From Eledone cirrhosa (taxonomy: Eukaryota), in assembly GCA_964016885.1 (NCBI GenBank), contig OZ024763.1, forward strand, positions 27,218,001 through 27,282,000: a stretch of DNA of 64,000 bases, given 5' to 3'. The notes beneath the pieces were generated by a model. It did not search any database, was not told the DNA's origin, and was given only the letters and a program-made list of their open reading frames with translations. Below are positions 2,989 to 62,908 of this stretch, piece by piece. Each line of letters starts with the position of its first letter. Positions within the stretch are counted from its first letter, which is position 1. A program made the translations under genes and the position numbers.

Positions 2989-3437
2989 GTATAAATGAAT
3001 ATATATACTTTATATATATACATATATTCATATGTATATATATATATATATATTTATATATATAATACACACACACACACACACACATATATACATATAT
3101 ATATATACATACATACATAATAATATACATGTAATATATATATATGTCAATATATATATACAGGAACGAAGTCGATCCTGTCTACTCAGAGATTAGCAAG
3201 AAAGTGTTGTCCGATTAGAGATAGGATTAACGAGAAGAGCTGTGACAGCACTGTGCATGTATGTATATATATGTATGTATGTGTGCGTGCGTATAAGTGC
3301 CTGTGTGTATGTATACACATAGCTATATATGTATAAATATATATATATATATATAGTCACTTATATATTATGAAATACTGTTGGCTTCACGCTCACAATA
3401 ATTTCTATACTTTCATTTATATATATATATATATATA

Positions 3438-3613
3438 GGAAAAGGTTCTGGAAACCCGACGGCAGAGCTCAAGACGTTTCGGCGGCTATTTTTGGACTCT
3501 AGAAATAGCCGTCGGGGTCCTAAACCTTTTCCTATTACCCACTCTACTACCCAAAATATCGAGTACTGTGGTGCGTTATGGTCCACCTGGTTCCTTACCA
3601 CACTTCCTTCGTT
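3438..3613 (+). mobile_element. PLE-like family A fragment (partial fold-back) in (TA)n
   Basis: Homologous to 4680-4890, 35964-36160, 42430-42625 and 54728-54864. Flanked by TA repeats. Confidence 0.7.
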
Positions 3614-3630
3614 ATATATATATATATATA

Positions 3631-4394
3631 GCGGCGATGAATTAGTTTAGCGAGGTTTTTTATATTAAATCGTGTGTCGAAACAAATATTGTTATACTCG
3701 GGGAGGGTCATATTTGTGTAATATTGCCAGAATTAATAACAGAACACACTCACTGTTTGGTTGGTTTTCGCTTCTCGCTGTCTTTTATATCTGCGATCTA
3801 ACTTACTCGGTCCTCAATGTTGCCATTGACTGACCGACGGTCAAAAATAATACAGATACAATATAGACACAAACACATATATATATAGTTTACATAATTT
3901 ACATAAATCTTTCGTTGCACATCTGCAACATCGTCAGTGGTGTTATATTTTTTCCTCCTGTTGTGTTGTATGTCTACGCCATTTTTTTTTTTTTAATTTA
4001 ATTTTATTTAATTTTATTTATTTATTTTTTTTTAAATGGCGTAGACATACAACACAACAGGAGGAAAAAATATAACACCACTGACGATGTTGCAGATGTG
4101 CAACGAAAGATTTATGTAAATTATGTAAACTATACCAAGGGCGGTGCCCCAGCATGGCCTCAGCCGGATGGCTGAAACAGGTAAAAGGGTAAAAGAGTAT
4201 ATATATGTGTTTGTGTCTATATTGTATCTGTATTATTTTTGACCGTCGGTCAGTCAATGGCAACATTGAGGACCGAGTAAGTTAGATCGCAGATATAAAA
4301 GACAGCGAGAAGTGAAAACCAACCAAACAGTGAGTGTGTTCTGTTATTAATTCTGGCAATATTACACAAATATGACCCTCCCCAAGTATAACAA
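3631..4394. mobile_element. PLE-like family C fold-back palindrome with a hammerhead motif in each arm
   Basis: Arms ~3690-3985 and ~4034-4394 are inverted copies. CTGACGA-t-GTTGCA(gatg)TGCAAC-GAAA at 4081-4108 (+), mirrored near 3905-3940 (-). Stems I and III are weak. Confidence 0.75.
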
Positions 4395-4496
4395 TATATA
4401 TATATATATATATATATGTAAAAGGTAAACAGAAATAACACAATCGGTACAGTATTTTGAAGGAATATATTAAGTTAACGCTTGAAATAGCTGGAA

Positions 4497-4540
4497 GAGG
4501 GTCTTAACGTTTCGGAAGCTAGTCCTTCATCTGAACAAAG
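4497..4540 (-). ncRNA. Degenerate minimal hammerhead motif
   Basis: The minus strand reads gtt-CAGATGA-a-GGA(ctagct)TCC-GAAAC-GTTA-agac, with one core mismatch (U4 to A). Confidence 0.45.
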
Positions 4541-4638
4541 AATGAGAAATAAGCTAGATTGAAGGGCGGGTTGGAATTGGAAAAAATGTTTTTAGAGAAA
4601 CATAACAGGTCCATTCATGTTGACATCTCTTGGAAAAC

Positions 4639-21574: not shown

Positions 21575-21900
21575 TTAACTATGGAGATATAAAAGATACA
21601 GAAGCGAAAACCAACCCAAACCAAACAGTGAGTCTGTTCTGTTATTATTTCTGGCAATATTACAACAATATGACCCTCCCCAAGTATAACAATATTTGTT
21701 ACGACACACGATTTCATATTAAAAACCTTGCAAAAGAAATATATATATATATTGTTATACTTGGGGAGGGTCATATTGTTGTAATAATATTGCCAGAATT
21801 AATAACAGAACACACTCACTGTTTGGTTGATTTTCGCTTCTGTATCTTTTATATCAGTTAATTCATTCGGTCCTCAATGTTTACCATTGACTGTTTTCTG
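21575..21900. mobile_element. PLE-like family C tails in tail-to-tail orientation around a short TA tract
   Basis: ATGACCCTCCCCAAGTATAACAAT on + at 21670, with its reverse complement at ~21751-21775. Confidence 0.7.
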
Positions 21901-22465
<565 letters not shown>

Positions 22466-30547: not shown

Positions 30548-30597
<50 letters not shown>

Positions 30598-30599
<2 letters not shown>

Positions 30600-31156
30600 T
30601 TTCTGAATTTGTTTGGCAAGATTCTTTATCTGAAATCGTGTGTTGAAACCGATATTGTTATACTTTGGGAGGGTCATGTTGCCAATAAGAAACACACGCA
30701 CCAGTTGCTTTCACTTCAATTTATTATATATTTATAAATTTACAAGTTTATAAATTTATAAAGTTGGTTGGTTGGTTCCACAACCAGATAGTTGTTTATA
30801 TATAGTCATAGTCCTTTCGTCACACACTCTGTGACCTCTTCAGTGACTGGGGATTCCTTTCTTTGTTTCTGTGCCTCTCCTTTGTTCTGTCCTACGCCAT
30901 TTTGTTTCTCTGGCGTAGGACAGAACAAAGGAGAGGCACAGAAACAAAGAAAGGAATCCCCAGTCACTGAAGAGGTCACAGAGTGTGTGACGAAAGGACT
31001 ATGACTATATATAAACAACTATCTGGTTGTGGAACCAACCAACCAACCAGAAATTTATAAATTTATAAACTTGTAAATTTATAAATATATAATAAATTGA
31101 AGTGAAAGCAACTGGTGCGTGTGTTTCTTATTGGCAACATGACCCTCCCAAAGTAT

Positions 31157-31165
<9 letters not shown>
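30598..31165. mobile_element. PLE-like family B fold-back palindrome with two hammerheads
   Basis: Arms ~30653-30899 / 30911-31164. The + strand at 30962-31006 reads AGTCA-CTGAAGA-gGTCACA(gagtg)TGTGAC-GAAA-GGAC-TA^TGACT, mirrored at 30804-30848 (-). Confidence 0.85.
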
Positions 31166-43056: not shown

Positions 43057-43535
43057 TATGTAAAAGCGTGTGGCTCAGTGGTTAGAGAATTGGATGCGCA
43101 ATCATGAGCTTTTGAGTTCGATTCCAGGACCAGGCGATACGTTATGTCCTTGAGCAAGACACTTTATTTCATGTTGTTTCTTCTACCTGGAGTTGCGACT
43201 GACAGATAGTATTAGCAATTGGAAAGACCAATGGAAACATTGTTTCCTCGGTCTGGTTTAATAAGCTCCACCCCACTTGTTAAGTGAATGAGGTCTGTCC
43301 ATCAACTATCGATATATATATATATTAGAAAATGAAGTTTTTTTACAAAATGAAAAAAAAAATGAGATGTCCTACATGAGTGAAAGTATAAAGAAAAAAG
43401 ATGAAATCGAAAATGCAACTGGAGTCTTTTTAAAATTTTTTATTTGGTTCCTTTACCGGTTTCGCAGTTCTTGTGCTTTTCAAAAGTAGAATTGAGATGG
43501 AGTGTTTGTGGTTTTTCATATATATATCTTTATAT

Positions 43536-43836
43536 ATATTGTTATACTTGGGGAGGGTCATATTGTTATAATATTGCAAGAAATAATAATAAAACACACT
43601 CACTGCTTGGTTTGGATTGGTTTTCGCTTCTGTATCATTTATATCTCCATAGTTAATTTATCTGGCAATCGATGTTTATCATTAATTAACGAATGGTTAA
43701 AAATACAGAACCCAAACCAAACAAACAGTGAGTGTGTTCTGTTATTATTTCTGGCAATATTACAACAATATGACCCTCCCCAAGTATAACGATATTTGTT
43801 TCGACACACGATTTCATATCAAAAGCCTTGCAAAAC
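43536..43836. mobile_element. PLE-like family C fold-back fragment
   Basis: Inverted tail segments ~43538-43630 / ~43705-43790. Confidence 0.7.
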
Positions 43837-44318: not shown

Positions 44319-44970
<652 letters not shown>

Positions 44971-49265: not shown

Positions 49266-50597
<1,332 letters not shown>

Positions 50598-50604
<7 letters not shown>

Positions 50605-50890
50605 ATGCTTTGAGAGGGTCGTGTTGCCAATAAGAAACACACGCACCAGTTGCTTTCACTCCAATTTATTATAAATTAAATTTATAAATTTCCGGTTGGT
50701 TGGTTGGTTGGTTCCACAACCGGACGGTTGTTCATATATTGTCAAAGTTCTTTCGTCACACATTCTGTGACCTCTTCAGTGACTGGGGATTCTTTTCTTT
50801 GTTTTTGTGCCTCTCATTTCTTATTGGCAACAATATCGGTTTCAACACACGTTTTCAGATAAAGAATCTTGCTAAACAAATTCAGAAACG

Positions 50891-50893
<3 letters not shown>
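50598..50893. mobile_element. PLE-like family B fragment with a hammerhead on the minus strand
   Basis: GTCAAAGTTCTTTCGTCACACATTCTGTGACCTCTTCAGTGACT at ~50741-50784, followed by a short inverted tail. Confidence 0.75.
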
Positions 50894-50943
<50 letters not shown>

Positions 50944-60255: not shown

Positions 60256-60308
<53 letters not shown>

Positions 60309-60310
<2 letters not shown>

Positions 60311-60647
60311 TGTTATACTTGGGGAGGCTCATATTTGTGTAATAATATTGCCAGAATTAATAACAGAACACACTCACTGTTTGGTTGGTTTTCGCTTCTG
60401 TGTCTTTTATATCAGTTAATTTAATTTATTTGGTCCTCAATGTTACCATTGACTGCCCAAAGGTAAAAAATACAGATACAATATAGACACAAACACATAT
60501 ATATAGTCTATCAAACTTCTTTTGTTGCACATCTGCAACATCGTCAGTGGTGCTATTTATGTTTCCACCCGTTGCATTGTATGCTTACGCCAAGTATAAC
60601 AATATTTGTTTCGACACACGATTTCATATCAAAAACCTCGCAAAACT
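60309..60647. mobile_element. PLE-like family C copy (decayed hammerhead on the minus strand, short inverted tail)
   Basis: TGTTGCACATCTGCAACATCGTCAGTGG at ~60523-60550. Switches to the + tail CAAGTATAACAAT at TACGCCA. Confidence 0.7.
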
Positions 60648-61524
60648 ATATATATATATATATATGTAGATAAATCTACCAAGAGTTTACGGTAGTGTCC
60701 AATCCGTATGAAGAACTCAATGTAGTCCGGATATCATGGAAAGAAGAGATGCAATGAAAAATCACTTTCGGTGAAAGATAAACGGAATACAGAGTCAAGA
60801 TAAAATATTAAAAAAATAATGAATAAAACAATGAAACAGTTCCTTATATTAAACAAAAAAAGTTCATTATTTAACGATCGTTTCTAGGATATATATGTGT
60901 TAGAATTGGCATGCATATTCAACAGATCTATGTACAAAATTATACAAAATTATACAAACTATCAAGATTAAATATACATACCAAACACACATATATGCCG
61001 TCTTCAGAAATAATGAAATATATTTATTGATAATAACAACAATTCAAAATTTCAGGTCCGTTTGGGAACGGAGTTCAAATTGACCAATGAAAATACAAAA
61101 AATTTTATGCAGTTTGGTGTGTGTATATACATGTAATTAACTTCGTACACATATTTATACAAAGATATATGCTCACATGCATACGCATGCCAAAAAGATG
61201 TATGCAAATACAAAAATTCAAGGCTAATGTCTCTGTAAGTTTATAATCCACAGATAAAATGCGTATAGACACATAAATATGAAATAAAAGTATACACATA
61301 TTCACATACTCACACATATCCGTACACTCACACACACACGCGCGCATATGCATAAACATACACATAATTATATACATAATTATATATATATATATATGTG
61401 TGTGTATGTATATATAATATACATATATGAAGTATTTCCATAGAAAGAGTAAAGGAAAGGAGAGTGCTCTATGTATGCTACAGAGCTATTTAATTATGTA
61501 ATAAACAACGTAAGACAATTATTC

Positions 61525-62576: not shown

Positions 62577-62908
62577 GGAGGCACATGGCTTAGTGGTTAG
62601 AGCATTGGGCTTGCAATCGAAAGGTTGTGAGTTCAATTCTCAGACCGGGTGATGTGTTGTTTCCTTGAGCAAGACACTTTATTTCACATTGCTCCAGTTT
62701 ACTCACCTGTAGAAATGAGATGATAGGGACTGCGGTCCCTATCATTCCACTGCAAAGTGGTCGTGGAGGTGCCACGGCAAAAAAGCACCCAGCACTCACT
62801 GTAAATGAGGTTGGTGTTAGGAAGGGCATCCAACTGTAGAAATCAAGCCAGAATCAGTTCCCGTCCCACCCTTGCAAGCAGGGAAAAGTGGACGTAAAAT
62901 GAAATGAT
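62577..62908 (+). mobile_element. Composite SINE, family 2
   Basis: Near-identical to 53311-53640. Confidence 0.85.

What the first reader, a model, noticed from the sequence alone, without database searches (positions are those of the whole stretch)
21670..21738. The tail shared by families B and C is a conserved ORF start (MTLPKYNNIxFxTRFxIKNLAK)
Seen: families with different hammerheads and UTRs share this tail. It translates as MTLPKYNNICYDTRFHIKNLAK (21670 +), MTLPKYNDICFDTRFHIKSLAK (43769 +) and MTLPKYNNIGFNTRFQIKNLAKQIQKR (30598-30679 -). Many differences are synonymous (AAC CTT GCA / AAC CTC GCA / AAT CTT GCC; ATT AAA / ATC AAA / ATA AAG). Inference: this is the N-terminus of the parent element's protein, which gives a handle for finding the autonomous partner.
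Basis: partly seen in the sequence, partly recalled or inferred. Interest (0 to 1): 0.7.

Follow-up and report, generated by a model that had tools for sequence, protein, structure and literature searches.

The report
Penelope retroelement tails overlap protein start
The short shared peptide is the true start of intact 1,200-residue proteins of two Penelope-type jumping-gene families, a layout already known for this class, and the copies end at two fixed AT-rich words inside that coding start, which likely mark where the enzyme begins copying its RNA into AT repeats.

Summary
Confirmed, and mostly known biology. The peptide begins intact ORFs elsewhere in the genome: 8 family-B copies (1,208-1,211 aa, 99.7% identical) and 10 family-C copies (1,216-1,270 aa). 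They carry RT motifs, a CX4CX2C linker and a CCHH GIY-YIG endonuclease, the features of Neptune/Nematis-type Penelope-like elements (PLEs). Over codons 1-28, B versus C gives dN/dS 0.24, and 10 of 16 differences are at third positions. The window copies are 5'-truncated stubs of these same elements, not separate non-autonomous families. A pseudo-LTR and tail that overlap the ORF start, and a tail on one end only, are published PLE features. What this case adds: 53 of 57 inverted insertions have exactly one short (+26) and one long (+84/+86, or about +70) end; the tail is about 60 nt rather than 30-40; the main ends coincide with (A)TAT words matching the (AT)n target, unlike the homology-free starts reported for the anole Poseidon element; and 5' ends pile up at a motif shared by the two otherwise unrelated UTRs. 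The likely mechanism is priming from both cut target strands at two fixed RNA sites (inferred, untested).

The parts
21670..21738 (+). Long 3' end (tail) of an old family-B' arm = codons 1-23 of the PLE ORF, followed by (AT)n
   Evidence: 92% identical over 66 nt to the intact B ORF start
21587..21669 (+). Truncated B' pseudo-LTR/UTR upstream of the ATG; no hammerhead left
   Evidence: 86% over 169 nt including the tail
21749..21893 (-). Second B-type arm with a short (+26) end, facing the first across a short (AT)n; likely a separate insertion
43714..43836 (+). B' arm with long end (ATG at 43770)
43536..43644 (-). Inverted partner arm with short end (ATG at 43561)
30592..30912 (-). Family-C arm with long end; ORF codons 1-27 at 30677-30597
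   Evidence: 93% to the full-length C UTR and tail
30911..31164 (+). Inverted family-C partner arm with short end (ATG at 31139)
30804..30848 (-). Type I hammerhead motif of family C, with a very short helix III
   Evidence: pattern and stem-II check; activity not tested
30962..31006 (+). Mirror copy of the family-C hammerhead motif
3628..3991 (-). Family-B arm with long (+84) end; ATG at 3711; hammerhead core at 3937
4034..4397 (+). Inverted family-B partner arm with short end; ATG at 4372; hammerhead core at 4081; interrupted by a ~70-nt foreign insert at about 4128-4197
44362..44686 (-). Family-C arm with long (+86) end; ATG at 44447; hammerhead-like core at 44617
44683..44871 (+). Inverted family-C partner arm with short end; ATG at 44846; hammerhead-like core at 44736
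50597..50822 (-). Family-C arm with short end; hammerhead-like core at 50779
50829..50896 (+). Family-C long end only (ORF +19 to +86)
60308..60592 (-). Family-B-type arm with short end (ATG at 60332)
60590..60648 (+). Family-B long end only (ORF +11 to +69)

Best explanation
The peptide is the N-terminus of intact RT plus GIY-YIG endonuclease proteins of two related Penelope-like retroelement families, and the window copies are truncated insertions in (AT)n repeats whose 3' ends fall inside that coding start, likely because reverse transcription begins internally at two fixed RNA sites. Shown: the ORFs, their domains and motifs, purifying selection, the two end classes, one short plus one long end per inverted insertion, (AT)n beyond the ends, and AT words at the main ends. 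Inferred: the endonuclease cuts both strands of (AT)n; one 3' end primes at about +26 and the other at about +85 of the ORF, helped by 2-4 base pairs with AUAU/UAU words; the two cDNAs stop independently and are joined head to head. Short arms likely come from priming on the ORF start near the 5' end of the element's own mRNA, so the RT runs off 230-310 nt upstream; full-length copies would need read-through tandem transcripts. The first 28 codons would thus be both protein (helix 1 of a predicted helical N-terminal domain) and a cis signal, which explains why families with unrelated UTRs keep the same tail.
For: Intact ORFs start with the peptide: 8 of 150 scored matches had open frames of 1,200 aa or more for B and 11 of 150 for C; 10 of those 11 were fetched and all 10 begin with the peptide, 7 exactly and 3 with one change. 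Pfam GIY-YIG passes its cut-off in C (E 7e-5, 23.5 vs 22.6 bits); RVT_1 is found below cut-off (E 6.5e-5 B, 1.4e-4 C). Motifs in B: PPKF216, DKSGR505, YVDD826, CX4CX2C1077, VVY-C-X4-C-YIG 1098-1119, HX3H. Tail dN/dS is 0.24; its synonymous divergence (pS 0.41) is lower than in codons 29-246 (0.74; Fisher p 0.005-0.025). Distant relatives keep the N-terminal [FY][ND]TR motif (P0013, P0020; L289, 49% identical in the RT, which also has a hammerhead core just upstream of its ATG). Ends: C 36 of 78 at +26/27 and 38 of 78 at +84-87; B 38 of 65 at +22-30, 17 at +84/85, 9 at +67-71; (AT)5 follows 69 of 78 and 57 of 65. One short plus one long end in 30 of 32 C and 23 of 25 B units (p 1e-7 and 1e-5) and 6 of 6 divergent units in the window. 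Arms abut within 5 nt in 29 of 50 units. AT words of 3 nt or more end at only 14 (B) and 10 (C) of 299 positions, yet +26, +84 (B) and +86 (C) are among them. In old B', where the +84 word reads CAT, 1 of 17 long ends lies there against 17 of 27 in the sample dominated by young B (p 2e-4). 5' ends pile up at the shared AAAATGGCG word: 9 of 16 (B) and 12 of 31 (C) ends between -100 and -500 fall in a 50-nt window (p 4e-5, 2e-4). Two internal RT starts bounding the tail and cleavage of both strands are shown in vitro for the anole element (PMC11167929).
Against: No biochemical or RNA data for these families. Microhomology is not sufficient: the 5-nt word at +51 and the 6-nt word at +141 of B are essentially unused, +19 is used in only 3 of 30 B' ends, and the +69/+71 ends have just 2 nt of match. 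A break defined by best extension drifts onto such words by itself. The anole element starts without homology to the target. The tail's pS is not significantly lower than in the RT plus endonuclease region (p 0.13). 4 of 57 units break the short-long rule (3 long-long, 1 short-short). Neither arm class is the longer (long end longer in 20, short end in 24 of 44), so one RNA cannot be told from two. The tail shows no unusual folding (z -0.05, -0.19). The B-family endonuclease has no Pfam hit. The 50-nt pile-up window was chosen after seeing the data. The B versus B' contrast is confounded by age and other sequence differences.
Confidence: 0.8

Rival explanations
1. Same elements, but the short end comes from endonuclease-mediated resolution of the integration intermediate (a cut inside element DNA at an AT-rich site), not from a second RT start.
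For: Craig et al. 2021 attribute the tail to EN-mediated resolution (PMC8557442, passages). An AT-preferring nuclease would also cut at ATAT words, which fits the end sequences.
Against: In the one PLE tested in vitro, the tail lies between two mapped RT start sites and genomic ends fall on them (PMC11167929).
Confidence: 0.12
2. The short ends are long ends eroded after insertion by slippage or deletion between the internal ATAT word and the flanking (AT)n.
For: Ends lie at AT words next to unstable repeats; old B' ends are more scattered.
Against: Erosion would not give one short end per unit (53 of 57), and the rule holds in family B, whose intact ORFs are 99.7% identical.
Confidence: 0.04
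3. B and C in the window are non-autonomous, retrozyme- or SINE-like families that keep the ORF start as a signal and are moved in trans by a separate partner.
For: The window holds no coding sequence beyond codon 28 (tblastn); many arms share a 5' end; retrozymes derive from PLE pLTRs (10.64898/2026.07.22.740005, part 1).
Against: Arms are collinear with the full-length UTRs and vary continuously from 15 nt to 3.9 kb. Stubs lack the ORF sequence downstream of the tail, which the anole protein needs (first 172 nt).
Confidence: 0.04

Closest known systems
Neptune/Nematis-type C-terminal EN+ Penelope-like elements (Craig et al. 2021, PMC8557442; passages and a supplement search)
   Same: Single ORF with RT then GIY-YIG; CX2-5CxxC linker and CCHH motif; pLTRs, partial tandems, inverted truncated copies, one-sided tail, hammerhead in the pLTR, microsatellite targets.
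   Different: ORF of 1,208-1,270 aa with a 49%-asparagine insert at residues 248-415 of B; tail about 58-60 nt (or 43-45) against 30-40. Clade not placed with named references.
Adineta vaga Pen2a_Av (Arkhipova et al. 2013, PMC3846280; passages)
   Different: Penelope/Poseidon group; 31-bp tail; here 8-9 and 28 codons, in (AT)n, with tens of thousands of copies.
PAc, Poseidon of Anolis carolinensis (Frangieh et al. 2024, PMC11167929; parts 1-2 of 4 read)
   Same: Two RT start sites inside the ORF bound the tail; both target strands cut and extended; hammerhead cleavage not needed (here no 5'-end excess at the cleavage site); long N-terminal helix.
   Different: PAc starts without homology to the target, about 111-118 nt into the ORF, with the hammerhead overlapping the ATG. 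Here the main ends match the target by 3-4 nt and the hammerhead cleavage site lies about 146-196 nt upstream of the ATG.
[quoted passage not shown]
   Same: Short, near-palindromic helix III; pairs of motifs on opposite strands 100-700 bp apart, read as truncated PLEs.
   Different: Nothing substantial; activity not tested here.
Hydra and Naiad PLEs of octopuses (Hydra-1_Obim, Naiad_Obim, Naiad_Ovul; supplement rows)
   Same: (TA)n targets; probably a related host group (best named protein hit is Octopus vulgaris, 68%).
   Different: Hydra lacks CCHH, has DKT and is under 3 kb; Naiad has an N-terminal endonuclease and no canonical hammerhead. Neither fits.

Membership tests
EN+ Penelope-like element | Single ORF with RT and GIY-YIG endonuclease | tested here: met
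   Intact ORFs; GIY-YIG above Pfam cut-off in C; RVT_1 below cut-off in both; B endonuclease by motif and alignment only
EN+ Penelope-like element | Pseudo-LTRs from partial tandems and inverted 5'-truncated copies | tested here: met
   Tandems with periods of about 4.0-4.3 kb and inverted arms
EN+ Penelope-like element | Optional tail on one end | tested here: met
   53 of 57 units; tail longer than the published 30-40 bp
EN+ Penelope-like element | Hammerhead motif in the pLTR | tested here: met
   Core motif and 6-bp stem II in both families; cleavage untested
EN+ Penelope-like element | RT phylogeny with reference PLE and telomerase RTs | not testable with these tools
   No named reference set; the quick tree of mostly unnamed homologs only groups B, C and the O. 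vulgaris protein (SH-aLRT 100)
Neptune or Nematis clade | CX2-5CxxC linker between RT and EN, plus CCHH | tested here: met
   CX4CX2C at 1077, two Cys between VVY and YIG, HX3H at 1147-1151 in B; the same in C
Neptune or Nematis clade | Neptune versus Nematis (linker length, tree position) | tested here: inconclusive
   Both carry the linker motif; microsatellite bias is reported for Neptune; no reference tree
Hydra clade | CCHH absent, DKT, CxCX5C linker, under 3 kb | tested here: not met
   CCHH present, DKS, about 4.1-kb unit
Naiad/Chlamys | N-terminal GIY-YIG, no canonical hammerhead | tested here: not met
   Endonuclease is C-terminal; hammerhead motif present
Non-LTR retrozyme | Non-coding tandem units, each with a hammerhead | tested here: not met
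   Arms are variable truncations of a coding element

The most novel reading that the evidence does not exclude
These elements use AUAU/UAU words embedded in their own first codons as telomerase-like alignment sites: both cut strands of the self-complementary (AT)n target base-pair and prime at two fixed sites, and the RT slips on those words to add AT repeats, so the element lengthens the microsatellites it lives in. Base-paired priming alone I put at about 0.5; repeat addition is not excluded but untested, because no empty site could be compared.
Probability: 0.12. Interest if true: 0.75.

Novelty: new member of a known kind. Interest (0 to 1): 0.33.

Why it matters
It turns thousands of anonymous stubs in AT microsatellites into two defined retroelement families, one very young and intact. 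The PLE transposition cycle is still only partly worked out, and the in vitro study I read covers a Poseidon element only. A young Neptune-type family with sharply fixed ends, target-matching start words and a strict short-long rule gives exact predictions for that assay: start sites, homology dependence and RNA 5' end. The basic finding, a tail overlapping the ORF start, is already published for other PLEs, which caps the surprise.

Tried and rejected
Rfam finds no hammerhead in the window at gathering score, only one weak tRNA; the hammerheads rest on a pattern and stem check. A homolog search with residues 1-250 found nothing at E<=0.001 among 1,592 candidates; N-terminal similarity came only from relatives found through the RT. 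No PDB sequence match and no fold match at E<=0.001 for the N-terminal model. A hairpin just 3' of the long end (+91-95/+101-105) has one compensatory, synonymous change between B and C, but covariation is not above shuffles (63 of 500): inconclusive. Folding of the tail regions and of the hammerhead segments is no better than shuffles. No excess of 5' ends at the hammerhead cleavage sites (1 of 16, 1 of 31). A repeat next to several B copies was followed up as a possible empty target; it is another element ending in (AT)n and gave no such test. No RNA holder listed. Laying four contig sets on 3400-4600 gave no empty allele; repeats were skipped, so this is uninformative. The careful tree did not finish; only the quick tree is reported. 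A C-like variant with long ends at about +84-86 gave no long frame among 150 matches. Literature searches turned up no description of these two families or of target-matched start words in PLEs. Repbase, Dfam and most subscription papers were not searchable, and only the first hits in the Craig et al. supplement were seen, so the families may already be named.

Full report
Observation. The three peptides are present, with small coordinate corrections (43770; 30597-30677) and one misplaced codon example. The window holds 12 ATG-core matches and two more arms lacking the ATG. They form six head-to-head inverted units (3628-4397, 30592-31164, 43536-43836, 44362-44871, 50597-50896, 60308-60648) and one tail-to-tail pair (21587-21893). 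Their 3' ends run into (AT)n or AT-rich repeats. The genome is 3.0 Gb and the best named protein relative is from Octopus vulgaris (68%), so the host is probably an octopod; this is an inference.

The peptide starts long ORFs. Searching the genome with the C peptide gave 38,520 candidates; all 150 scored were identical, and some ran on into long frames, one of 864 aa reaching the RT catalytic motif. With the B peptide, 8 of 150 scored matches had frames of 1,200 aa or more; these are 8 distinct ORFs of 1,208-1,211 aa starting MTLPKYNNICFDTRFHIKNLAKLIHRRY, on average 99.7% identical in DNA (one copy entered that average twice). With C residues 28-172, 11 of 150 had such frames; I fetched 10, all intact at 1,216-1,270 aa, 7 starting exactly with the C peptide and 3 with one change, 96.6% identical. 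Pfam finds RVT_1 below its cut-off in both and GIY-YIG above cut-off in C only. B shows PPKF, DKSGR, YVDD, a CX4CX2C linker, two cysteines between the VVY and YIG motifs and an HX3H pair. By the criteria in PMC8557442 (passages) this is the Neptune/Nematis type and excludes Hydra, Naiad and Penelope/Poseidon. A search of 109 relatives and a quick tree of 34 sequences group B, C and the O. vulgaris protein (SH-aLRT 100), without named clade references.

Selection. Between intact B and C, codons 1-28 give dN 0.14 and dS 0.59; 10 of 16 differences are at third positions (p 0.016). Codons 1-9 have no amino-acid change. Synonymous divergence in the tail (pS 0.41) is lower than in codons 29-246 (0.74; p 0.005-0.025) but not significantly lower than in the RT plus endonuclease region (p 0.13), so a second, nucleotide-level constraint is suggested, not proven. 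Distant relatives keep a [FY][ND]TR motif at the N-terminus. AlphaFold2 on a 7-sequence alignment models residues 11-28 as a confident helix in a long helical domain, with no PDB fold match.

What the window copies are. They align with the UTR that lies between stop codon and ATG in tandem full-length copies (80-94%). In the genome such arms run from 15 nt to 3.9 kb. They are truncated insertions of the autonomous elements. The UTRs of B (about 480 nt) and C (about 420 nt) share only short words; each has its own type I hammerhead motif, with the cleavage site about 196 and 146 nt upstream of the ATG. The copies at 21670 and 43770 belong to an older subfamily B' (255 exact pattern hits) with no intact ORF among 30 loci examined.

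Ends. I sampled arms on contig 1 by patterns ending 7 nt into the ORF, so that end type could not drive the choice: 30 loci per family plus 20 regions per family picked from the listed positions as close neighbours. Of 152 arms, 80 were C, 69 B and 3 unassigned. Terminal ends fall at +26/27 or +84-87 in 74 of 78 C arms; in B at +22-30 (38), +67-71 (9), +84/85 (17) and +56 (1) of 65. (AT)5 follows 69 of 78 and 57 of 65. Of 57 inverted units, 53 have one short and one long end, 3 two long, 1 two short. In 50 units examined, arms abut within 5 nt in 29; of the 44 short-long units with a usable junction the long-end arm is the longer in 20. The main ends coincide with target-like words: AACAATAT at +26, CGCTAT at +84 in B, GAAATAT at +86 in C; words of 3 nt or more end at 14 and 10 of 299 positions. 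The long end thus follows each family's own word. In B', where that word reads CAT, long ends move to +67-76 (16 of 17; p 2e-4 against the sample dominated by young B). Against a simple homology rule: better words at +51 and +141 are unused, and the +69/+71 ends match by only 2 nt.

5' ends. Truncation points pile up at a word shared by the two UTRs, AAAATGGCG (-279 in B, -240 in C): 9 of 16 and 12 of 31 ends between -100 and -500 lie in a 50-nt window (window chosen after seeing the data). A second shared word, CGCATGCGC, lies upstream in both. From memory these resemble YY1 and NRF1 promoter motifs; no call tested that. I read the pile-up as the RNA start. There is no excess at the hammerhead cleavage site.

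Mechanism. Shown here: coding status, domains, end positions, pairing rule, target repeat. Taken from the literature: a pLTR and tail containing the first 12-22 codons (PMC3846280, passages); a tail on one end only; two internal RT starts bounding the tail, both strands cut and extended, and a need for ORF sequence beyond the tail (PMC11167929, parts 1-2 of 4); dimer-type hammerheads in pLTRs (PMC4209133, passages). Inferred: both cut strands of (AT)n prime, one at each site, aided by 2-4 base pairs; the cDNAs stop independently and are joined; priming near the mRNA 5' end yields the abundant 300-nt stubs. Whether one or two RNAs serve as template is open. PMC13282606 (passages) lists 31 recently active Penelope-like families in O. 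vulgaris; the passages seen do not describe them.

Verdict. This is a new member of a known kind, and earlier notes of this scan report the same short-long rule in other genomes (AI notes, not independent support). The additions are the intact young family, the longer tail and the target-matched start words. Interest 0.33.

Noticed in passing
window 43320-43520 (-), flank of L058, loci L239-L268: A third, unrelated repeat (5,398 exact hits of a 36-mer) also ends in (AT)n, forms inverted pairs, appears to have two end lengths, and carries a degenerate hammerhead-like core with a palindromic helix III. It often abuts B copies.
   Followed up: partly
L058 UTR and L161 UTR; window 30900-30930: Two short words (AAAATGGCG, CGCATGCGC) are kept in the same order in otherwise unrelated UTRs; likely an internal promoter (YY1-like and NRF1-like from memory).
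   Followed up: partly
L058:3783-4286 (residues 248-415): An asparagine-rich (49% N) low-complexity insert between the N-terminal domain and the RT, much longer than in distant relatives; in C it is where several broken copies shift frame.
   Followed up: partly
G000:C6:65203000-65229000 (L165-L167): A tandem array of at least six full-length family-C units with a period of about 4.27 kb, one with an intact 1,270-aa ORF.
   Followed up: partly
protein P0102: An O. vulgaris protein annotated as dynein regulatory complex subunit 6-like has a stretch 74% identical to the element's ORF: probably an exonised or mis-annotated PLE fragment.
   Followed up: no
L148-L155 (G000:C1:347.46-347.74 Mb): A decayed B' tail is repeated within a local segmental or tandem duplication.
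   Followed up: no
L164:8699-8823: A small inverted pair with a related but different end sequence; possibly a further family.
   Followed up: no
window 12511 (-), 46637 (-), 53851 (-), 53880 (+), 61587 (-): Other hammerhead-like cores not belonging to B or C.
   Followed up: no
window 22240-22400: A long inverted repeat with CTGAT...GA-like cores next to the 21670 locus.
   Followed up: no
window 62586-62643 (+): Weak tRNA match (31 bits), possibly a SINE head.
   Followed up: no
L288:1500-2400: A distant metagenome PLE relative whose ORF holds an unrelated insert and a 21-nt-period repeat in its N-terminal part.
   Followed up: no
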